DNA from: a virus
Virus record (IMG/VR): IMGVR_UViG_3300033149_001257
Location: 32,001-96,000 of that record
Strand: one strand, 5' to 3'
DNA: 64,000 bases
In this document: positions 40,571-54,750 of the stretch, piece after piece
Position numbering within the stretch: the first letter of the stretch is position 1
Layout: the number at the start of each line of letters is the position of its first letter
Program-made: the position numbers and the translations under genes
Notes under the pieces: generated by a model
Told to the model about the DNA's origin: nothing
Seen by the model: the letters and a program-made list of their open reading frames with translations, nothing else
Databases searched by the model: none

Positions 40571-40619
40571 TTGCTTATCCTCCTTTTATTTTACCAACAT
40601 CAACATCTACGAGTTAGTA

Positions 40620-40697
40620 TTGGCACTCTCCATGTGGGGATTCTCAGGACTAAGCCTGAAGGCTCTGCCCGAGCCCTGTGTGCTTATTGCCACATTA
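40620..40697 (-). ncRNA. orphan TnpB omegaRNA-like scaffold copy 1
   Basis: TAATGTGGCAATAA..GGCTC-GGGCA-GAGCC-TTCAGG..CCTGAGAATCCCC..GGAGAGTGCCAA; colinear with the tnpB 3' end/right end at 45407-45510. Confidence 0.7.
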
Positions 40698-41762
40698 CGA
40701 ATTAGTGATAACCCGTATTGTGTTTTTCCTATAAGGGGCCGGTATCAGAAGATGTAAACATTTCGTTATCTGCACGGCTTCCTTGTGGTCAGAACCATCA
40801 AATACCTTCATCATTATCTCGTTGAAGTGCATTGTTTTATCCTGACTCGGTTTCTTCGAATATTTACCAACCGGCTGATCTGAGAAACAATACATCCTGT
40901 TTACTTCCAGGGTATTGTCAACTATCCAGGTCACGTTGTATCCAAAGAGGTTGTTTACAACACCATTCTGCATAATAAGCTGCTGCGTTGCTAAAGGAAC
41001 CTCGCTGTTGTATCCACCCGGTGAACCGGCGGCATTATATACAGGCACCCAATCCCATATCTCAGGAAGTGTCGTAGGTGACAGATATATTTTGTTGATC
41101 TTTATACCAAGCCTCAATGAAAGCGCAAACAGAGACTTCATGGTATTTATGGTTATCCCACCCTGCGCAGAAGCGTCAATCGAGTTGGTTGTCGGGAAAG
41201 AAACCACGTCGGAATCCGTATTGAATGTTCCTGTCGGGAACGTACCATATATGGACTTAATGAGTGTCCATATGTCCTGGTTTATCTTACTGGCAACATT
41301 CTTCGATGCCCTCTTGTTGACCCTATCGGAAACCTTGAGCCGACCAGTTACGGCACTCGCTGTAGGATAATCAATGAGGTCGGATGATACATAATATGGC
41401 TTATATGCCGTCACGCCATCTTCGTTAGTAAACGAATCTTTCGGCGCGCCACCGAGCTGAGATATTTCCTTAACCTCGTATTTCTGATTCTTCTCGGTAT
41501 AGACTTCCGGCCACTGGTCATCCTTCAAAGTCTCCGTCTCAAATAACTGTGATGCCAGAATATCAGCATCGATGTCAACATTTATTCTCGTCTGCCTACC
41601 AGCAGCAAACTCTATGGCCGCTGCCGGACTTGAGGCTGATGCCATGAGCATCTTTTCCCTCTCACTGTCGGGCTTCCTTGCGGCATCCAGCGCCTTATCT
41701 TCGGCTTCGATTCTCGCCCTGTTGGCGGGTAACATTAAATCCAGTTTCTCTCTCGCAATCAT
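40695..41762 (-). CDS. major capsid protein (HK97 fold, inferred)
   Basis: 355 aa, strong AAGGAGG RBS, after protease and decoration genes; NLFGYNV motif. Confidence 0.72.
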   Translation of the reverse strand: MIAREKLDLMLPANRARIEAEDKALDAARKPDSEREKMLMASASSPAAAIEFAAGRQTRINVDIDADILASQLFETETLKDDQWPEVYTEKNQKYEVKEISQLGGAPKDSFTNEDGVTAYKPYYVSSDLIDYPTASAVTGRLKVSDRVNKRASKNVASKINQDIWTLIKSIYGTFPTGTFNTDSDVVSFPTTNSIDASAQGGITINTMKSLFALSLRLGIKINKIYLSPTTLPEIWDWVPVYNAAGSPGGYNSEVPLATQQLIMQNGVVNNLFGYNVTWIVDNTLEVNRMYCFSDQPVGKYSKKPSQDKTMHFNEIMMKVFDGSDHKEAVQITKCLHLLIPAPYRKNTIRVITNS

Positions 41763-41837
41763 TTTACATTCCTCCTTCTTTCAAGATTTTTTTCTTTCTT
41801 TTTTTACGCAATTACTGTATATCTATTTCAACTTCGT

Positions 41838-42299
41838 TTACGAATACACTTCTATATGATACTCTCCTGACGTACCATCCCACAATCCTACAAGCCTACC
41901 CTTGATGTCATATGTGCCCTGGGACACACGCCATAATCCATTATATACTTCAAGGTCAGCATCGTGCGCTGTGCTATCAGAAATCGCGCCTACTGCACCA
42001 TACGCAGCAACCAGGCTGGTTACTATGTATCCACCACCACTGGCTACGGTTACGGGGCTACCTATCACAACGTCCGTATTGGGAACATTGTTCAGCATCT
42101 CAATATGGGAAATCCCTGTAGCTGTTACGTTCTGAATCAGGGGCCCAATAAACTTACTCGTTGCAAGTTCAAGCGTGCCAGGCGCACTCGCGCTGACCTG
42201 TGTGCCTGAAGCAACATCAACGAAATATCCCCTTGTCATTGCTACGCTAGTAAGAAACCATCCCGTCTTTTCTCTGAAACCTTTCACGATTTTGAACAT
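41838..42299 (-). CDS. head decoration/cement protein candidate
   Basis: 153 aa between protease and capsid. Confidence 0.55.
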   Translation of the reverse strand: MFKIVKGFREKTGWFLTSVAMTRGYFVDVASGTQVSASAPGTLELATSKFIGPLIQNVTATGISHIEMLNNVPNTDVVIGSPVTVASGGGYIVTSLVAAYGAVGAISDSTAHDADLEVYNGLWRVSQGTYDIKGRLVGLWDGTSGEYHIEVYS

Positions 42300-42361
42300 T
42301 TTGAAATCCTCCTTTTAGAGATTTTTATTTTTACTTAATGTCCGTTCTTGTTCTTAACTAC

Positions 42362-44437
42362 TTAAAACGCACCTTCTACATTAGAAACAATGCCTGTTGA
42401 AGCAACTGCCTGGACTGAGGGTTTGAGTGTTTCTTTGCCCTTAGTATCGGTCGTGCTTGCTGTTGCTTTGGTGGCCGTGGCTTTCAGATCCTCTTTCCAT
42501 GCCACAAACTCTTTTTCGCCAACTTCGTCAAAACCAAACCTGCCCATCTGCTCTTTCTTATACTCAGAAAGCTCAATACCGGAATCCTTTATATCTTTAT
42601 CACGAGCTGCTACTTTCGTGGCTATCTCAGCCTGTTCAGTCCTGTCAGTTTCAACCGCTGCCTTAATTCCCACCTTGACGGCTTCGGCAATCTCGGTCTT
42701 GACTGTTTCGGCATCTTTGTAATCTTTAAACTTATCAGTCATTTCAGTTTCTTTCTCAGAAACCGCGCTTCCAGCAACTTCCTGCATTGCCGATACTATC
42801 GCAGTGGCTGCCAGCGTTACCTGGTCCCCTGTCAAATCAAACGTCTTAAACAAACTTGCTACACTTTCCGGCATCTTCAGTGTCGTTAAGTCCATGTCAT
42901 TTCCTCCTTTTACTAAATTTTTTATTTCATTTATGTGCGAAACCATTTGCCCCATCGTCATGCTACCCGTGTCTATGCTCATTTCGTTAAGCCTTATATC
43001 TTTCATGCTTTTCTTTGCCGATACTTCCAATGTCCTCGATGCTGTACTCCTGAGCTCTTTCTTGCTGATTGATTTAGTCTTTGGCTCTATGTGGTCAGCC
43101 ATGATTAAAGCGCTCCTTAAATGAGCCAAATCAATATGCCCTGCCCCATCTTTATAGGGAAGGTGCCTGGAATCCTTATCCTTGGATGCTCCACTTATAT
43201 AGTCAGGCTCTATCGCTGCAAACGAGCTATCCGGTAGAGCGTCAATAAACGTCTTTGTCCATTTTTCAACAGTGTCTGTTTTTACAAACTCACTCGCTAA
43301 TGAAAAATATCTCGGTGATTCAAACCCACCATCCTTTTCCTCTATTACTGAATATGACGAATATACCCTTATCCCATCATCGTCATTACTGTCCATGTAT
43401 GCACAAAAATCAAAAGTGTCAAACTTTACTTCCTTATCATTTATTTCTATTCTCGTACCACCGGCAGTTTTATCAGTCTCTATCAGTATTCTTGTTTTCT
43501 TCATAGTGTCTCCTCCTGTAGATTTTTGTCCAGGGCCCGGTCTGTCGGCCCTTCTCATCTGTCCCCCACAACTGCTGCATGTCTGGTCTTTGCAGTGACT
43601 CGTAGATGTCGCCTTTTTCCCACATTCAATACATTCACATTCGTATTTGGTAGCTCCTGATTCTACTTTATCTTCAACCTTCTTGCCATCCTTGTTCGTA
43701 AGAGAACCGTCGCTGGCTACGGCGAGATTTAAGGGCTCAAAACCATTTGCGTTGCGATCAGCTGGTGAGAGCGTCAATGCCGCCCCAACAAAGACTACGT
43801 TGCCATTCTCGCCACCAAGTGCAAATTCCATTGGTTTATCTTTGTATGGTAGGCACCGGTCCTCAGAAAGACATTCCTTCATGTCGTCGGTGGCATCTTC
43901 ATAGTTGATAAAATTGCCACCGAGGAAGAAAGCCGAGTCAGAATAAGAAAAAAGGCACTCCATCGATGATTTATACTCGGCCAGCCCTGCATCGTACAAC
44001 TCAAGAATGTCCCTCACCTTCTTTATTCTCTTGTATAGTACGCCATACATGGTTACGGGGACCGCCTCTGCCGGAACAGCCACATCTCCCGCATCTCCCA
44101 TGCTAACATCAATTATATGCCCAAGTATGTCATTGTCGTCTTTTTTGGGATTGTTGGCATTATCCTCAATCCTGTGCTCAAGATTTACCATGTTATGCGG
44201 CACCGTATTAATTGAGTTGGACAACACCTTATATGAAAAACATCTGTTTTTTGAATTTGAAATAGGAAGAGAGTTGCATAAGATGAGCTTGAAAAACTGT
44301 AAAGATGAATTCGGCGTGAGCTTAACTCCCGATGCCAACGAAATCGGTTCTTTTATAAATGATACTTTGGCATCTCCAAGCGCAAATCTTTTTTTGTTTT
44401 CCAATTTTTTTTCTCCATAAAAAAAAGACATTGACAC
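42362..44437 (-). CDS. prohead protease/scaffold fusion (real start possibly TTG ~44404)
   Basis: VNLEH, ILGHI, SSMEC, GAALTLSPAD protease-like motifs; Zn finger; LPDSSFA...RHLPYK domain; helical acidic C-terminus. Confidence 0.72.
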   Translation of the reverse strand: MSMSFFYGEKKLENKKRFALGDAKVSFIKEPISLASGVKLTPNSSLQFFKLILCNSLPISNSKNRCFSYKVLSNSINTVPHNMVNLEHRIEDNANNPKKDDNDILGHIIDVSMGDAGDVAVPAEAVPVTMYGVLYKRIKKVRDILELYDAGLAEYKSSMECLFSYSDSAFFLGGNFINYEDATDDMKECLSEDRCLPYKDKPMEFALGGENGNVVFVGAALTLSPADRNANGFEPLNLAVASDGSLTNKDGKKVEDKVESGATKYECECIECGKKATSTSHCKDQTCSSCGGQMRRADRPGPGQKSTGGDTMKKTRILIETDKTAGGTRIEINDKEVKFDTFDFCAYMDSNDDDGIRVYSSYSVIEEKDGGFESPRYFSLASEFVKTDTVEKWTKTFIDALPDSSFAAIEPDYISGASKDKDSRHLPYKDGAGHIDLAHLRSALIMADHIEPKTKSISKKELRSTASRTLEVSAKKSMKDIRLNEMSIDTGSMTMGQMVSHINEIKNLVKGGNDMDLTTLKMPESVASLFKTFDLTGDQVTLAATAIVSAMQEVAGSAVSEKETEMTDKFKDYKDAETVKTEIAEAVKVGIKAAVETDRTEQAEIATKVAARDKDIKDSGIELSEYKKEQMGRFGFDEVGEKEFVAWKEDLKATATKATASTTDTKGKETLKPSVQAVASTGIVSNVEGAF

Positions 44438-44545
44438 TCTCCTTTAAGGAGATTCTCAGGTTGAGGATACGGAATCCTGAAGGCTCTGCCCGAGCCTTAA
44501 AATGTTTATCGCCACATTATGGTCACAACCTAATTCAAAACCATA
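44431..44545 (-). ncRNA. orphan TnpB omegaRNA-like scaffold copy 2 (tnpB 3' remnant plus right end)
   Basis: reads YGFELGCDHNVAINILRLGQSLQ (cf. TnpB CGLEIGRDHNAAMNILMAGQAIR) then GAGAATCTCC-TTAAA-GGAGAGTGTCAA. Confidence 0.78.
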
Positions 44546-44553
44546 AAGTCAAT

Positions 44554-44605
44554 AAAAAAATGGCAATACACATTATCAGTTAATTTTGATAATACATATT
44601 GCCAC
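44554..44605 (-). terminator. intrinsic terminator
   Basis: ~19-bp stem GTGGCAATATGTATTATCA/TGATAATGTGTATTGCCAT running into a T7 tract. Confidence 0.8.
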
Positions 44606-44668
44606 TTCAAGTACATTGATGAGGGGGTTGCCCTCGGGCTTTTTCTGGTACTTCGCTGTCTGAGGGTA

Positions 44669-44697
44669 ATTATATCAGATATTTATTGTTTTGTCAA
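44669..44697 (-). promoter_or_regulatory. consensus sigma70 promoter
   Basis: TTGACA-17 nt-TATAAT with TG extension. Confidence 0.8.
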
Positions 44698-44847
44698 GCA
44701 TTTTGGAGAATTAGGTGGAAGTTATTTTTCGGATATTTTTTGAATTTCGCTTATTCTCGTCGCTGTTTGCTGTTTATGTTTTTAGTATTTTCAATTATGA
44801 TTTCACTTAATCATTGAATCTGGCTTGTTTGTTTTATTGAAAATCCG

Positions 44848-44887
44848 CCCATTCATCCCCGCGGTTAAAATCGGAGGTTTTCTGGGA
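44848..44887. repeat. degenerate IS200/IS605-type end hairpin
   Basis: CATTCATCCCCGCGGTTAAAATCGGAGGTTTTCTGGG resembles IS605-family subterminal palindromes. Confidence 0.45.
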
Positions 44888-44903
44888 TGTTTCTATAATA
44901 GTT

Positions 44904-45152
44904 CTATTGTTTTTTCCTGAAACTTGTGGTAAGGTTTTTAGAAACATCCCGGACATCATCATGGTTGGGGAAATTTTTATTTTTTATTTTTTTTAAAAAC
45001 TCTGACGCTTTCATTACTTCCCGGGGTCCATTAAAATATCTTATGAGTAACGGAAAATCTCCGCTTTCTTTCAATATCTTTTTAATACCCGTGACCCCGG
45101 TAAAAAAATCGCTGTCTAATGAATTTGATTTCTTTTTTCTATTATCTTTCAT
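44904..45152 (-). CDS. basic hypothetical protein
   Basis: GAGGAG RBS. Confidence 0.55.
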   Translation of the reverse strand: MKDNRKKKSNSLDSDFFTGVTGIKKILKESGDFPLLIRYFNGPREVMKASEFLKKIKNKNFPNHDDVRDVSKNLTTSFRKKQ

Positions 45153-45198
45153 TTTTGGCTCCTCTCTGATTTTAATTACTCCGATTTCTAAATTTGGC

Positions 45199-45400
45199 CC
45201 TTAACTGCCCTGTGTTGAGCTTTGGGGGTTCCTGGCGTGTTCTCCAGTCCTCATTCTCCTTTCATTGAAGATTTGCCCGCGTTCTGCCCTGTCCTACCTG
45301 TTCTGTGTCGTTCCCTACGGGCGGTCTTGCCTTTGCCCTATGTATAATGAGTAGAAACCCAGAACAGAGAGAGCAAGCAAGAACACTTAAACAGCTAAAA
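45199..45400 (-). ncRNA. candidate ~200-nt structured RNA of unknown family
   Basis: five nested helices with G-U pairs valid on the minus strand; no ORF. Confidence 0.55.
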
Positions 45401-45448
45401 CAATATTTGACACTCTCCGTGGCTAAAGCCGGGAGATTCTCGGGACTT

Positions 45449-46540
45449 CTATGAAGCCTTCCGAATGGCCTGCCCAGCCATTAAAATATTCATTGCTGCG
45501 TTGTGGTCACGACCTATCTCCAAACCACACCTACACTTATGCACACGAACTGACAATTCTTTTTTGACTATCTTTCCACACTTTGAGCACATCTGGGATG
45601 TGTTTTTGGCAGGAACCTCAATGACTTCTTTTCCAACTTCTTCCGCTTTGAAACGAAGTATATTGAAGAAATTAAACCAAGCAACATCCCTCATAGACCG
45701 ATTGAGCTTTCTGAATGTTTTCCAACTGTGAAGTTTTTCTATACAGATTATGTCGTTCTCTTTAACCAACTTATTAGCAACTTTAAAATGAAAATCTCGT
45801 CTTTGGTTGGCAATCTTTTCGTGAACCTTAGCGACAAGCAACTTTGCCTTTTTTCTTCTACTGGAACCTCTCTTTTTACGAGAAAGCGCTTGTTGGCGCT
45901 CAGTCAGAACACTATCGGCCTCATTAAGAAATCGGGGATTATCTATGGAATTACCATTAGAGTCGGTCAGAAAAGATTCACAGCCCACGTCAATACCGAT
46001 AGTCTTGCCAGTTTTGGACAACGGTTTACCAGGAACATCTTTACAGGAAAAACAAGCAAACCATTTCCCGGCTGGGGTTTTGCGGATAGTTACGGTTTTA
46101 ATTGCGCCCTCGGTAGGCCGAGAAAGTTTCATCTTGAACTTACCAATTTTATTAATAGTAAAGCACCTTCCGTTAAGTTTCCATCCACATTGTTTAAGTG
46201 TGAAAGAATCGTATCTTCCCATCCCCTTGAATCTCGGGAACCCAGCCTTTTCCCCGGACTTAACTCTACGGAAAAAAGATTGGTATGATTTATTGAGACG
46301 CTCAGTCACGTCCTGGAGTGATTCACTTGGCACTTTTTTAAATTCGGGAAAACCTTTTTTCAGGTCGGAAAGCTGATTCGCTTGGTCATACCCGGAAATA
46401 AATTTCCCGTGACATTTCCAAGCATTTATTCTCTGCTCAAGGCAGAGATTATAAAGTATTCTGCAAAGATTAAGAACTTCTTCGGTTTTGGTGAGAGTTT
46501 CTCGATTGGCATATATTCTATATTTAAAAGTCTTTTTCAT
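45449..46540 (-). CDS. tnpB: RNA-guided endonuclease TnpB
   Basis: KTFKYRIY, GFPRFK, IGIDVG (D), ICIEKL (E), TSQMCSKCG..C.CG Zn finger, RDHNAA (D): RuvC triad intact. Confidence 0.96.
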   Translation of the reverse strand: MKKTFKYRIYANRETLTKTEEVLNLCRILYNLCLEQRINAWKCHGKFISGYDQANQLSDLKKGFPEFKKVPSESLQDVTERLNKSYQSFFRRVKSGEKAGFPRFKGMGRYDSFTLKQCGWKLNGRCFTINKIGKFKMKLSRPTEGAIKTVTIRKTPAGKWFACFSCKDVPGKPLSKTGKTIGIDVGCESFLTDSNGNSIDNPRFLNEADSVLTERQQALSRKKRGSSRRKKAKLLVAKVHEKIANQRRDFHFKVANKLVKENDIICIEKLHSWKTFRKLNRSMRDVAWFNFFNILRFKAEEVGKEVIEVPAKNTSQMCSKCGKIVKKELSVRVHKCRCGLEIGRDHNAAMNILMAGQAIRKAS

Positions 46541-46926
46541 TTTTTTGATTGCTCCTCTATATATTTTTTCACAACCTTACTTGATATATTTCCGGCAGTA
46601 CATACAAAATATGAATGAGTCCATAGAGAGGGAATTTTTAGCAGGTGTGGAAATTCTCTACGAAGATAATTTGATGTTCTTCCCTTGAATGCTTTTATTA
46701 TTTTATGGATAGATATTGTGGGGTATGCTGAAACAAAAACATGGAGATGATCTGGTTGAATCTCAAAAGCAATTATGTCTATACTTTTTTCTTTAGCAAC
46801 TTCTCGCATGATTACGCGAAGTCTATTTTTTACTTTTCCTATCAGAACTTTTTTTCTTCTCTTCGGGCACCATATCAGGTGGTAGTTTATGAGATATATT
46901 TGATTGCGTGAATGTTTATATTTCAT
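46537..46926 (-). CDS. tnpA: IS200-family HUH (Y1) transposase
   Basis: YHLIWCPKRR, PDHLHVF (HUH), KGRTS, LWTHSYFV, YIEEQ. Confidence 0.96.
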   Translation of the reverse strand: MKYKHSRNQIYLINYHLIWCPKRRKKVLIGKVKNRLRVIMREVAKEKSIDIIAFEIQPDHLHVFVSAYPTISIHKIIKAFKGRTSNYLRREFPHLLKIPSLWTHSYFVCTAGNISSKVVKKYIEEQSKK

Positions 46927-46935
46927 CTTGTTGAT

Positions 46936-46964
46936 AGTATAGCATATATCAACAATCTTGTCAA
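46936..46964 (-). promoter_or_regulatory. sigma70 promoter for tnpA-tnpB (near-leaderless)
   Basis: TTGACA-17-TATACT, TG extension, 9 nt before ATG; inverted repeat TTGTTGATA-N10-TATCAACAA. Confidence 0.75.
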
Positions 46965-46972
46965 GGAAAAAA

Positions 46973-51982: not shown

Positions 51983-52057
51983 GTGGGGTGTGGACACTTC
52001 CCTCGGTACTAAGGCTTTGCCTGAACCCGGCTCCGATGAGTCTGCACCCCGCTTTTT
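51983..52057 (+). ncRNA. structured leader RNA / attenuator
   Basis: 13-bp stem GTGGGGTGTGGAC/GTCTGCACCCCGC (3 G-U), inner TCGG/CCGA helix, followed by T5. Confidence 0.6.
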
Positions 52058-53646: not shown

Positions 53647-54750
53647 ATGAATCTGAAAATTGACAAACAGTTGTATGATTTGGTCCCACTTTTGACCGAT
53701 GAGGAATATGCTGGTTTGGAGCAGAACTGTATCAAGAATGGCATAAGAGATTCTATTGTTATTTGGAAAGAAACAAAAGAGCCTGTTTATACGGTTATTG
53801 ATGGCCATAATCGATATAAAATTGCTCAAAAGAATAAGTTGAAGTATGATACGGTTATGGTTAATTTTGAATCAAAAGATGAGGCCAAGATATGGATTAT
53901 TAATAATTGCTTAGATAGGCGCAATTTGAATGATGCTCAAAGAATTATGTTGGCTTTGAAAATGGATGATATTATAAAAGCAAAAGCAAAAACACAGCAA
54001 ATTAGAAAACCCAAATCTGTTCCGACAATGTTGTCGGAACAAAAGCCAATAGAAACAAGGAGGGAAGTTGCAAAGATTGCTGGCACTGGACGGCTTGCGG
54101 TTGATAAAATGAGAACTATTTTGGATAAGGGTACTCCGGAGCAGAAAGAAAAAGTATTGAGTGGGAAAAGCACAATTAGCGCAGTATCTCGCGACATAAA
54201 GAGGGTTGAAAAAAAAGAAGAAATTAAGCGTATCCCGCCATCAAAGCTCGAGGGTAAGTATAATGTTCTACTGGCAGATCCACCATGGCAATATGATATT
54301 ACAAATACTGCCATTAGGGGTAATGCTGATGACCAATACCCCACAATGGATATAGAAAAAATAAAAGAGTTGCCTATTGAAAACATTACCCTTGATAATG
54401 CTGTCTTGTTTTTATGGACGACGTCCTCAATGATAAGAAAAGCATTTGATGTAATTGAGGCGTGGGGATTTGAGTTTAAGACTTCCATGGTGTGGGTTAA
54501 GGACCGTATAGGAACAGGTTTTTATGTGCGAAGTAAGCATGAGATATTATTAATAGGTGTTAAGGGAAGTTTTACCCCAATGACCACAAAGTTACCAGAT
54601 AGCGCAATAATGGCAAAAAAGGAAAAGCATAGTAAAAAACCCGAAATATTTTATGATATAATAGAAAAAATGTATGCTGGACAAAAATACATAGAGTTGT
54701 TTGCCAGGAATGAGAGAGATGGTTGGGATTCGTGGGGAGAGGAAATATAA
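53647..54750 (+). CDS. ParB-like N-terminal domain fused to MT-A70 family N6-adenine methyltransferase
   Basis: IDGHNRY, RRNL; YNVLLADPPW, YPTM, LFLW, WGF..KT..VWVK, RSKHE, HSKKP, IELFAR, WGEE. Confidence 0.9.
   Translation: MNLKIDKQLYDLVPLLTDEEYAGLEQNCIKNGIRDSIVIWKETKEPVYTVIDGHNRYKIAQKNKLKYDTVMVNFESKDEAKIWIINNCLDRRNLNDAQRIMLALKMDDIIKAKAKTQQIRKPKSVPTMLSEQKPIETRREVAKIAGTGRLAVDKMRTILDKGTPEQKEKVLSGKSTISAVSRDIKRVEKKEEIKRIPPSKLEGKYNVLLADPPWQYDITNTAIRGNADDQYPTMDIEKIKELPIENITLDNAVLFLWTTSSMIRKAFDVIEAWGFEFKTSMVWVKDRIGTGFYVRSKHEILLIGVKGSFTPMTTKLPDSAIMAKKEKHSKKPEIFYDIIEKMYAGQKYIELFARNERDGWDSWGEEI

What the first reader, a model, noticed from the sequence alone, without database searches (positions are those of the whole stretch)
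40600..46964. Phage TnpB with two orphan omegaRNA-like scaffolds bracketing the capsid module: possible domesticated multi-guide RNA system
Seen in sequence: two extra copies of the IS605 omegaRNA region (tnpB 3' end plus right end, 45407-~45510) lie on the same strand. One is at 44431-44545, directly before the protease gene; the other is at 40620-40697, starting in the capsid stop codon. All three keep a stem with a GGGCA loop, a second stem, a GAATC(T/C)CC..GGAGA stem, and a GTG(T/C)CAA end that can pair with the GGGCA loop as a pseudoknot. Stem sequences differ between the IS and the orphans but pairing is kept. Both orphans have lost the GGCTTTAGCC tip of the terminal hairpin. They share features with each other (AATGTGGC, GGCTCGGGCAGAGCCTTCAGG) that the resident IS lacks. 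Each has a different downstream guide: ATATTGTTTTAGCTGTTTAA (IS), TGTCTTTTTTTTATGGAGAA (copy 2), TACTAACTCGTAGATGTTGA (copy 1). Established: TnpB uses a right-end-derived RNA whose guide is the 3' flank, can use guides in trans, and processes its own transcript; TnpA binds the subterminal hairpin. Inference: the phage keeps TnpB-binding RNA modules stripped of mobility. They could be extra guides against host or competitor DNA, or TnpB-dependent processing/regulatory sites flanking the protease-decoration-capsid mRNA.
Basis: partly seen in the sequence, partly recalled or inferred. Interest (0 to 1): 0.9.

Follow-up and report, generated by a model that had tools for sequence, protein, structure and literature searches.

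The report
Gene-less TnpB guide-RNA remnants flanking phage head genes
A 110-kb uncultured phage carries two TnpB nuclease genes and two gene-less leftovers of the same IS608-like mobile element around its head genes; both leftovers keep the guide-RNA scaffold, and one sits beside a silently recoded copy of its own target, the layout expected of a "cut the rival phage, spare myself" element, though nothing has been shown at the bench.

Summary
A covariance model finds exactly four copies of the scaffold in the 110-kb genome. Two are gene-less. The orphans are of the tnpB-2 type.

Comparison of left ends shows an IS608-like family: target motif TTAC or TTAT, right end TCAA.
- Copy 2 is the right end of a 464-nt gene-less mini-IS (left end, promoter, leader, hairpin, scaffold). 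It sits at a TTAT between a small ORF and the head-protease gene.
- Copy 1 is a 5'-truncated scaffold. It is joined 12-15 nt after a TTAT to a copy of its own guide sequence, which forms the last capsid codons. The two copies differ only by silent changes.
- No left-end/right-end pair is intact, so nothing here can transpose.

Best reading (about 45%): immobilised remnants still usable in trans by the phage's RuvC-intact TnpBs, aimed at insertion-free alleles in related phages (homing or exclusion). Inert scars is the main rival (about 35%). A CRISPR-like anti-host guide set is not supported. Gene-less omegaRNA elements are already known in bacteria, and this scan has noted similar phage cases on other DNA.

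The parts
46537..46926 (-). tnpA (129 aa, Y1 HUH transposase; HUH motif and catalytic Tyr present)
   Evidence: Pfam PF01797, E 1e-39; sequence read
46936..46964 (-). Sigma-70-type promoter in front of tnpA. It is of the phage's own promoter type. No IS left end lies between it and the upstream gene.
45449..46540 (-). tnpB-1 (363 aa, RuvC D/E/D and zinc finger intact)
   Evidence: Pfam PF01385/PF07282/PF12323; alignment with tnpB-2
45407..45526 (-). omegaRNA scaffold and right end of IS-1, with the full subterminal hairpin; ends TCAA. The guide is the flank 45406-45391.
   Evidence: CM E 5e-27; alignment
44904..45152 (-). 82-aa ORF; its stop codon lies 9 nt before the mini-IS
44431..44894 (-). 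464-nt gene-less IS608-like mini-element (PATE-like), inserted right after TTAT (44898-44895)
   Evidence: LE homology to L006 and L020; LE/TAM survey; RE by CM
44857..44877 (-). Left-end subterminal hairpin of the mini-element; mostly intact (one mismatch, one wobble)
44669..44697 (-). Perfect TTGACA-17-TATAAT promoter with extended -10, inside the mini-element
44559..44606 (-). 20-bp A+T-rich hairpin followed by U7 (terminator-like), between the promoter and the scaffold
44431..44542 (-). Orphan scaffold copy 2 (tnpB-2 type). It keeps about 24 codons of a tnpB C-terminus and all three stems. The RE hairpin tip is deleted. It ends TCAA.
   Evidence: CM E 5e-27; 83% identical to the tnpB-2 scaffold; tblastn remnant
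44415..44430 (-). Would-be guide of copy 2. This is the native intergenic DNA that holds the GGAG Shine-Dalgarno (44416-44413) of the head-protease gene.
42362..44404 (-). Head protease/scaffold-like polyprotein (label from gene order only). The TTG at 44404 aligns with Met1 of homologues. An in-frame ATG at 44431-44429 is formed by the last A of the right end.
41838..42299 (-). 153-aa ORF between the scaffold-like and capsid genes (decoration-like by position only)
40695..41762 (-). Major capsid protein
   Evidence: Atlas look-alikes carry Phage_capsid_4 / YonB / SU10 MCP, TM 0.63-0.76; homologues
40693..40711 (-). TTAT (40711-40708) followed by a 12-15-nt copy of copy 1's guide. It forms the last capsid codons (I T N S stop) and differs from the guide only by silent changes.
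   Evidence: local alignment 13 of 15, empirical P 0.003; sequence
40620..40692 (-). Orphan scaffold copy 1. It is 5'-truncated, keeps three stems (one C.A mismatch in the last), has a short second stem, has lost the hairpin tip, and ends CCAA.
   Evidence: CM E 6e-15
40604..40619 (-). Would-be guide of copy 1. It reads as an alternative capsid gene end (T N S stop) followed by the native spacer to the next gene.

Best explanation
Both orphans are immobilised, gene-less derivatives of an IS608-like IS200/IS605 element of the tnpB-2 lineage. Copy 2 is the right end of a 464-nt PATE-like mini-IS that inserted at a TTAT between a small ORF and the head-protease gene. Copy 1 is a 5'-truncated right end. 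It is joined 12-15 nt downstream of a TTAT, roughly the distance at which TnpB cuts, to a copy of its own target, which forms the last capsid codons with only silent differences. I read this as the footprint of a TnpB-made break repaired by incomplete copying of an IS from a co-infecting relative, joined by microhomology. Both scaffolds lie inside the head-operon transcript and keep every conserved scaffold feature. They are therefore most likely bound in trans by the phage's two nuclease-intact TnpBs. The resulting complexes would be aimed at TTAY plus the flank, that is, at the insertion-free alleles of these same head-module sites in related phages. Cleavage during co-infection would exclude the rival or copy the element and neighbouring head genes into it. 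The phage's own DNA would be spared because the flank follows TCAA/CCAA rather than the target motif, and because the capsid-end copy is recoded. Shown here: anatomy, homology, structure conservation, target motif, immobility, intact catalytic residues. Inferred: expression, TnpB loading, cleavage, homing.
For: Exactly four scaffold copies exist in the genome; the two orphans score E 5e-27 and 6e-15. The stems are supported by covariation. A second tnpB (79% aa identity to tnpB-1, D/E/D intact, own consensus promoter) lies outside the window, and its scaffold is 83% identical to copy 2 and shares an exact 24-nt block with both orphans. The LE upstream of copy 2 is homologous to the LEs of L006 and L020. 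TTAC (14) or TTAT (3) lies 11-14 nt (19 in one ambiguous TTAT case) before the LE box in 17 family members, and the RE ends TCAA, as in IS608. Canonical PATEs with this scaffold occur in two other viral contigs. The target duplication at copy 1 is TTAT + 12-15 nt versus CCAA + guide, 13 of 15 identical, P about 0.003 before the positional and TTAT constraints are counted, and both versions encode T-N-S-stop. ISDra2 TnpB cuts 15-21 bp from its TAM, and the TAM equals the TnpA target site (PMC8612924). TnpB works equally well with its omegaRNA supplied in trans (10.1101/2023.11.20.567912). TnpB makes omegaRNA from longer transcripts by 5' processing (PMC10278001). PATEs often encode omegaRNAs that need a TnpB in trans (10.1101/2023.03.14.532601). 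No promoter-like site lies between the hairpin at 44559 and the protease start, so head-gene transcripts must contain copy 2.
Against: There is no orthologous comparison, because no related phage with accessible DNA was found. Conservation after the loss of tnpB therefore cannot be separated from recent ancestry. Intact stems and symmetric loss of hairpin tips can also arise from the known instability of palindrome centres. Copy 1 lacks the 5' third of the scaffold, and in ISDra2 that region forms stem 1 and the pseudoknot partner. Copy 1 also has a C.A mismatch in its last stem. Both sites carry TTAT, the minority form of the motif. The capsid-end copy differs from the guide at seed positions 1 and 7, so either cleavage preceded these changes or the junction has another origin. 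A terminator-like hairpin sits between the mini-IS promoter and scaffold 2.
Confidence: 0.45

Rival explanations
1. Inert scars. The orphans are decaying leftovers of past IS or PATE insertions. They persist only because deletions reaching further would damage the protease ribosome-binding site or the capsid stop. They are transcribed passively and have no effect.
For: IS200/IS605 remnants and PATEs are common. One viral contig has a PATE of this family but only a TnpB of another subfamily. Both orphans have lost parts: the hairpin tip in both, and the 5' third and LE in copy 1. The phage tolerates long non-coding stretches (44431-44903, 45153-45406). Central deletions in palindromes keep shorter stems without any selection.
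Against: All three stems, the invariant loop and the 3' adaptor are retained in both orphans, while the rest differs by 17-27%. A cognate, apparently active TnpB is kept under a consensus promoter. The target copy beside copy 1 with only silent differences is not expected of passive decay.
Confidence: 0.35
2. Co-opted cis-regulatory RNA. The scaffolds act on the head-operon mRNA itself. TnpB binding or processing at copy 2 would mask or uncover the protease ribosome-binding site. At copy 1 it would separate capsid mRNA from downstream genes. The mini-IS promoter and hairpin would act as a late promoter and attenuator.
For: The copy 2 guide region contains the native GGAG, and the 5' arm of its last stem can pair with that GGAG in the minimum-energy fold of a very structured leader (z -5.0). 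An in-frame ATG with an AAGGAG 7 nt upstream is created at the RE junction. A perfect promoter plus hairpin-U7 precedes the head genes. TnpB binding to an omegaRNA embedded in a longer transcript represses a competing RNA function in IStrons.
Against: The TTG aligned with Met1 of three homologues and its own GGAG suffice for initiation. The fold and the pairing are predictions only. Nothing distinguishes this from a tolerated insertion in a leader. There is no conservation data.
Confidence: 0.1
3. Copy 1 is a DNA copy of a mature omegaRNA (scaffold plus 16-nt guide) inserted at its own cut site by RNA-templated repair or reverse transcription.
For: The inserted unit can be read as a truncated scaffold plus about 16 nt of guide placed 12-15 nt after the TTAT, which gives the observed duplication. 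The scaffold's 5' limit is close to that of a promoter-driven minimal scaffold in a PATE.
Against: No reverse transcriptase was seen near the element, and the only Rfam hint (RT-17) is far below threshold. The same anatomy follows from DNA-templated abortive homing with TAATG microhomology, which needs no new mechanism.
Confidence: 0.04
4. A CRISPR-like multi-guide defence or offence set whose guides were acquired against host, plasmid or unrelated phage DNA.
For: There are four scaffolds with four different flanks and two nucleases in one genome.
Against: Each flank is contiguous native phage sequence: the protease leader, the capsid gene end, and the C-terminus of a convergent ORF. There is no array and no repeat-spacer unit. 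The only near-matches elsewhere in the genome lack the target motif and are compatible with chance.
Confidence: 0.03

Closest known systems
PATEs (palindrome-associated transposable elements) of IS200/IS605 that carry an omegaRNA (Meers et al. 2023, G. stearothermophilus; 10.1101/2023.03.14.532601)
   Same: They are gene-less, have an LE and RE of the parent IS, and carry a scaffold next to a flank-derived guide that needs a TnpB encoded elsewhere. L005 and L006 in other viral contigs are canonical examples of the same family.
   Different: The copy 2 element is larger (464 nt). It has an internal promoter, leader and hairpin-U7, and has lost the RE hairpin tip, so TnpA cannot move it. Copy 1 has no LE at all. 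The setting is a phage head operon.
IS608 of Helicobacter pylori, with ISDra2 TnpB/omegaRNA as the studied model
   Same: TTAC-type target motif at the LE and TCAA at the RE (the IS608 values are from my own knowledge). Related LE and RE subterminal hairpins. The scaffold overlaps the tnpB 3' end and the guide is the RE flank. The scaffold is of ISDra2-like length (about 113 nt versus 116 nt).
   Different: Here no element has a working LE/RE pair. The proposed pseudoknot partner is the invariant GGGCA loop of stem 1, not a 5'-proximal segment as in ISDra2, and this is untested.
Free-standing homing endonucleases of T-even phages (Seg, Mob): intronless homing and localized marker exclusion (reviewed in PMC13565253)
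   Same: A nuclease system wedged between conserved structural genes. It would cut the allele that lacks the insert in a co-infecting relative, while the phage's own allele is protected by sequence differences. Neighbouring genes would be co-converted.
   Different: Target recognition here would be by RNA guide, with one protein serving several sites. No cleavage or exclusion has been shown.
TldR (TnpB-like nuclease-dead repressors, some prophage-encoded)
   Same: TnpB-derived, immobile, with the guide RNA used for a function other than transposon maintenance.
   Different: Both TnpBs here keep the RuvC D/E/D triad. The guides are the flanks themselves, not promoter-matching sequences.

Membership tests
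TnpB omegaRNA (right-end RNA) of IS200/IS605 | Sequence and secondary-structure homology to scaffolds attached to tnpB genes | tested here: met
   CM R1 gives copy 2 119.9 bits and copy 1 70 bits. All three stems are kept, with covariation across 9 sequences.
TnpB omegaRNA (right-end RNA) of IS200/IS605 | Overlaps the 3' end of a tnpB gene | tested here: not met
   No tnpB lies upstream of either orphan. Only about 24 codons of a C-terminus remain in copy 2. That is why they are called orphans.
TnpB omegaRNA (right-end RNA) of IS200/IS605 | Ends at the transposon right-end boundary, followed by a locus-specific guide | tested here: met
   TCAA (copy 2) and CCAA (copy 1) are followed by unrelated flanks.
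TnpB omegaRNA (right-end RNA) of IS200/IS605 | Bound and 5'-processed by TnpB; directs TAM-dependent DNA cleavage | not testable with these tools
   This needs RIP or small-RNA sequencing and interference assays.
PATE (gene-less IS200/IS605 derivative) | A left end with subterminal hairpin, preceded by the family's target motif | tested here: met
   Copy 2: TTAT at 44898-44895 and LE box/hairpin at 44857-44886, homologous to L006 and L020. Copy 1: no LE, so copy 1 is not a PATE.
PATE (gene-less IS200/IS605 derivative) | An intact right-end hairpin, so that TnpA can excise it | tested here: not met
   8-9 nt of the hairpin tip are missing in copy 2, copy 1 and the tnpB-2 RE, compared with IS-1, L020, L006 and L005.
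PATE (gene-less IS200/IS605 derivative) | No protein-coding gene between the ends | tested here: met
   There is no co-oriented (minus-strand) ORF of 50 aa or more with a ribosome-binding site in 44431-44894; the only ORF of that size wholly inside is a mechanical 74-aa plus-strand one at 44359-44583.
TldR / nuclease-dead domesticated TnpB | Loss of RuvC catalytic residues | tested here: not met
   The D (IDVG), E (ICIEKL) and D (RDxNAA) residues are present in both TnpBs.
CRISPR-like guide array | Tandem repeat-spacer units with spacers acquired from foreign DNA | tested here: not met
   The copies are dispersed and each guide is the contiguous native flank.
Homing / marker-exclusion cassette | The nuclease specificity matches the insert-free allele, while the phage's own allele is protected | tested here: inconclusive
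   The layout fits: guide preceded by CCAA/TCAA, and the capsid-end copy recoded at guide positions 1 and 7. No insert-free relative could be fetched.

The most novel reading that the evidence does not exclude
The phage runs a fixed, four-guide, two-nuclease TnpB system as an inter-phage weapon and gene drive for its head module. All elements have been stripped of mobility. Copy 1 is a molecular fossil of an actual TnpB cut at the capsid gene end, repaired by abortive homing. The phage's own capsid end was then silently recoded to escape its own guide. Because three of the four target sites lie in or next to the portal-to-capsid block, cleavage of a co-infecting relative would drive co-conversion of that block.
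Probability: 0.25. Interest if true: 0.8.

Novelty: new variant of a known kind. Interest (0 to 1): 0.58.

Why it matters
TnpB is the ancestor of Cas12, and its only shown natural role is keeping its own transposon in place. If gene-less scaffolds in a phage are used in trans against insertion-free relatives, TnpB would also act as an RNA-guided equivalent of phage homing endonucleases, with one protein serving several loci. That would be an intermediate step between a one-guide transposon nuclease and a multi-guide system. The copy 1 anatomy (target motif, recoded target, truncated scaffold, guide) gives a concrete, testable prediction for such inter-phage cutting. It may also be a sequence signature that can be searched for in other phages. 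If the orphans prove inert, this is a well-documented case of IS605 decay in a phage.

Tried and rejected
**Searches for related phages (positional conservation)**
- Megablast of 10 kb and tblastn of the capsid against GenBank phages found nothing.
- The capsid protein and the capsid alignment against IMG/VR found nothing.
- The same query against 185k prokaryote genomes found nothing.
- JGI metagenomes gave only a 2.4-kb fragment and two 26-27% relatives.
- The closest relatives are known only as proteins: P0002/P0007 on a 22-kb JGI contig and P0005.

**Other negative results**
- The exact 21-nt core is absent from other IMG/VR contigs.
- Rfam has no family for this RNA at gathering or E-value thresholds.
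- The AlphaFold model of the capsid was unusable (pLDDT 34).

**Ideas rejected**
- TTGAC as the target motif. It is the -35 box of phage-type promoters, and the LE survey gives TTAC/TTAT.
- A fifth, antisense or degenerate scaffold at 51983-52057. It is not detected by the model with filters off at E up to 10.
- Homology between the flanks of copy 1 and the tnpB-2 element (a shared 8-mer, P 0.007) as evidence of guide-carrying copies. The tnpB-2 flank is the C-terminus of a convergent ORF, so chance is more likely.
- The right end as the necessary provider of the protease start. Homologues align to the downstream TTG, which has its own GGAG.

**Limits**
- The terminal RE motif is shared by very diverse TnpB clades in bacteria and archaea. 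It therefore says nothing about the host, and my tblastn-based count of 'orphans' in that set is not valid.
- The statement that stand-alone omegaRNAs were reported by Altae-Tran et al. 2021 comes from memory and earlier scan notes. The paper is not held.

Full report
**Setting**

The window is bases 32001-96000 of a 110,457-nt IMG/VR virus record. The record is linear, with a CheckV completeness estimate of 66%.

All genes around the finding are on the minus strand. In transcription order they are:
- a terminase-like ORF (weak Terminase_6C match);
- a 599-aa portal-sized ORF with a ChaB C-terminus;
- tnpA (Y1 transposase, E 1e-39) and tnpB-1 (OrfB_IS605 plus the Cas12f-like zinc domain);
- an 82-aa ORF;
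- a 689-aa protease/scaffold-like ORF with no family match;
- a 153-aa ORF;
- a 355-aa protein that the ESM Atlas places among major capsid proteins (TM 0.63-0.76 to clusters carrying Phage_capsid_4, YonB or SU10 MCP).

My own AlphaFold model of that protein was unusable (pLDDT 34). The 'capsid' label is therefore supported, while 'protease' and 'decoration' rest on gene order only.

**Checking the observation**

The three copies align as described. I built a covariance model from nine sequences: the three copies, a fourth copy in this genome and five from other viral contigs.
- With filters off, it scores the IS right end (45407-45526) and copy 2 (44431-44542) at about 120 bits each, and copy 1 (40620-40714) at 70 bits. 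The next hit in the window has E 0.66.
- Across the whole genome there are exactly four copies.
- The three stems are supported: 97% of cells are paired, seven pairs have changes on both sides, and none of 500 shuffles or of the slid controls comes near.
It is almost invariant, so its only support is one G.U to G-C change, in copy 1.

The fourth copy lies outside the window, at genome 16646-16757 on the minus strand. It is the 3' end of a second full-length tnpB (tnpB-2, genome 16671-17771, 366 aa).
- tnpB-2 is 79% identical to TnpB-1, has the RuvC D/E/D triad and zinc finger intact, and has no tnpA beside it.
- Its scaffold is 83% identical to copy 2. It contains the exact 24-nt block that both orphans share and IS-1 lacks.

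So the orphans belong to the tnpB-2 lineage. This explains the 'features shared by the orphans but not by the resident IS'.

**The family**

Relatives of TnpB-2 (81% identical) in two other viral contigs (L020, L021) keep a full right-end hairpin and a left-end remnant.

A survey of left ends covered 17 family members from viruses, bacteria and archaea. It shows a conserved LE box and hairpin, preceded at 11-14 nt (19 in the one ambiguous case, L154) by TTAC in 14 cases and TTAT in 3. The LE and RE boxes are homologous to each other, and right ends finish in TCAA. This is the IS608 pattern; the IS608 values themselves are from my own knowledge.

For ISDra2, the TnpB TAM equals the TnpA target site, and cleavage is staggered at 15-21 bp from it (PMC8612924).

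Two other viral contigs (L005, L006) carry canonical gene-less mini-elements of this family. They consist of TTAC, an LE hairpin, in L006 a consensus promoter placed directly before stem 1, the scaffold, an intact RE hairpin, and TCAA. Meers et al. already noted that such PATEs 'often encode omegaRNAs' that need a TnpB in trans.

**Copy 2 is the right end of a mini-IS**

Another first-stage note (e1-5998040) suggested a left end upstream of copy 2. I tested this: 44835-44886 aligns with the LEs of L006 and L020, and it is the only LE in the genome. The element runs from 44894 to 44431 (464 nt) and begins right after a TTAT (44898-44895), 9 nt past the stop codon of the 82-aa ORF. It contains, in order:
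- a mostly intact LE hairpin (44857-44877);
- a perfect TTGACA-17-TATAAT promoter (44697-44669);
- a leader;
- a 20-bp hairpin followed by U7 (44606-44559);
- the scaffold.

The insert-free site would place the small ORF's stop 9 nt from the copy 2 flank. That flank holds a GGAG 8 nt before the TTG at 44404, and this TTG aligns with Met1 of three homologues.

An in-frame ATG with an AAGGAG 7 nt upstream is also created at the RE junction. Which start is used cannot be decided here.

No promoter-like site lies between the hairpin and the protease gene. Every head-operon transcript must therefore contain scaffold 2.

**Copy 1 sits beside a copy of its own target**

The scaffold starts at about 40692, immediately after the capsid stop codon. 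On the minus strand, upstream of it, lies TTAT (40711-40708) followed by the last capsid codons (I T N S stop). Downstream, after the CCAA end, the would-be guide (40619-40604) repeats that sequence at 13 of 15 aligned positions.
- The only differences are an Asn codon change, a stop codon change and the first base. Both versions encode T-N-S-stop.
- The empirical P is 0.003 for random 24-mers at any offset. This is before counting that both copies abut the element and that TTAT sits where the motif should.
- The closest capsid homologue ends ...RVITA, so the upstream copy is native capsid sequence.
- IS200/IS605 transposition makes no target duplication, so a canonical insertion cannot explain this.

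The simplest origin I can find is as follows. TnpB cut an insert-free capsid end. The break was repaired from a co-infecting genome that carried the IS at that site. DNA synthesis copied the donor flank, the right end and part of the scaffold, then stopped. The new strand was joined to the left break end by the TA/TAATG microhomology, 12-15 nt after the TTAT. This is inference. The alternative readings are given as rivals.

Whatever its origin, the present layout means that a copy 1 guide would match a rival's unmodified capsid end. The phage's own copy differs at guide positions 1 and 7.

**Nothing here can transpose**

- IS-1 has an intact tnpA (HUH and Tyr present) and a full RE. However, only 46 nt, occupied by a phage-type promoter, separate tnpA from the preceding ChaB-domain gene, and no LE box is found.
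- tnpB-2 lacks the LE hairpin that L020 still shows.
- tnpB-2, copy 2 and copy 1 have all lost 8-9 nt of the RE hairpin tip. By the loop sequences, this happened in at least two different ways.
- The only LE lies downstream of the only intact RE.

Loss of the tip could reflect selection against TnpA nicking at unpaired ends. It could equally reflect the usual instability of palindrome centres, and I cannot separate the two.

**How it most likely works**

Established facts:
- TnpB uses the RE flank as its guide.
- It works equally well with a trans-encoded omegaRNA.
- It makes its guide from longer transcripts by 5' processing.

Shown here:
- There are two catalytically intact TnpBs, one behind a perfect promoter.
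- There are four structurally intact scaffolds, two of them inside the head-operon transcript.
- Each guide specifies the insert-free allele of its own locus when preceded by TTAY.

Inferred: the orphans are loaded in trans, and during co-infection they direct cuts in relatives that lack the inserts, leading to exclusion or homing. This resembles the free-standing homing endonucleases of T-even phages. I put it at about 45%.

The main rival, inert scars, stands at about 35%. I found no orthologous copies with which to test for selection after the loss of tnpB. Copy 1 is truncated in a region that ISDra2 needs for stem 1 and its pseudoknot, although the L006 PATE starts its transcript at the same point as the conserved core.

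A cis-regulatory role is possible (about 10%). The leader is unusually structured (z -5.0), and in the predicted fold the last stem's 5' arm can pair with the native GGAG. TnpB binding represses a competing RNA function in IStrons.

A CRISPR-like set of acquired guides is not supported. All flanks are contiguous native sequence, and near-matches elsewhere in the genome lack the motif.

**Novelty**

Gene-less omegaRNA-bearing derivatives and trans use are known in bacteria. TnpB genes are common in phages: 80 GenBank phage records match at E below 1e-40. This scan's earlier notes list many orphan scaffolds in phages, several of them in head-gene leaders, and one with a guide matching the neighbouring head gene apart from silent changes. 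Those are unchecked leads, not evidence.

I found no paper describing orphan scaffolds in phages or the target-duplication layout.

I therefore class this as a new variant of a known kind. It has one specific and testable feature: the copy 1 footprint.

**Limits**

- The closest relatives are known only as proteins.
- The host is unknown. The nearest cellular TnpBs (61-64% identity) come from unrelated phyla.

Noticed in passing
genome 16671-17771 (-), about 14.2 kb before the window start (L002:1526-2626): A second, tnpA-less tnpB (tnpB-2) with its own perfect promoter. The TGA stop of a convergent 91-aa ORF is supplied by the reverse complement of the element's terminal TCAA, so the IS sits on the end of that gene.
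   Followed up: partly
window 46927-46972: The tnpA/tnpB-1 cassette has no recognisable left end. tnpA is intact but is preceded only by a phage-type promoter, 46 nt after the stop of the ChaB-domain gene.
   Followed up: partly
whole genome; in the window e.g. 2771, 44697, 46964, 51880, 61336: A family of about a dozen very strong sigma-70-type promoters, many of the form TTGACAAG ... TATG(C/G)TATA(A/C)T with an extended -10.
   Followed up: no
window 54402-54417 (+): A 15 of 16 match to the copy 2 guide inside a plus-strand gene. It is not preceded by TTAC/TTAT and the mismatch is at guide position 7. It is T-rich, so probably chance.
   Followed up: partly
window 43597-43608 (+): A 12-nt exact match to the middle of the copy 1 guide inside the protease/scaffold ORF. 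Guide positions 1, 3 and 5 mismatch and no target motif is present, so it is compatible with chance.
   Followed up: partly
window 40604-40619 versus genome 16630-16645: The flanks of copy 1 and of the tnpB-2 element share an 8-mer at offsets 6 and 7 after the right end (P about 0.007, post hoc). It is unexplained and probably chance, since the tnpB-2 flank is coding sequence of a convergent ORF.
   Followed up: partly
window 44395-44665 (-): The head-operon leader is exceptionally structured (MFE -81 kcal/mol, z -5.0). The native spacer carries a U8 and an A8 run on either side of the AUGGAG that holds the Shine-Dalgarno.
   Followed up: no
window 51983-52057: A terminator-like hairpin after the rightward promoter was flagged by other first readers as an antisense mimic of the scaffold. 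On the minus strand, 14 of 17 bases match stem 1, but the covariance model does not detect it at E up to 10.
   Followed up: partly
L056:1501-1593 (IMG/VR contig of 88.9 kb): Another viral contig with only about 30 codons of a TnpB C-terminus followed by a right-end-like hairpin, that is, another orphan of a different subfamily.
   Followed up: no
L005 (record G001): A canonical PATE of this scaffold family sits in a 51.7-kb viral contig. The only TnpB on that contig lies about 29 kb away, and its own right end is not recognised by the model.
   Followed up: partly
window 42362-44431 (-): The 689-aa head ORF has internal Shine-Dalgarno/ATG sites in frame (about 43505 and 42895) and a conserved four-Cys zinc ribbon. 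This suggests nested protease and scaffold products, as in lambda C/Nu3.
   Followed up: no
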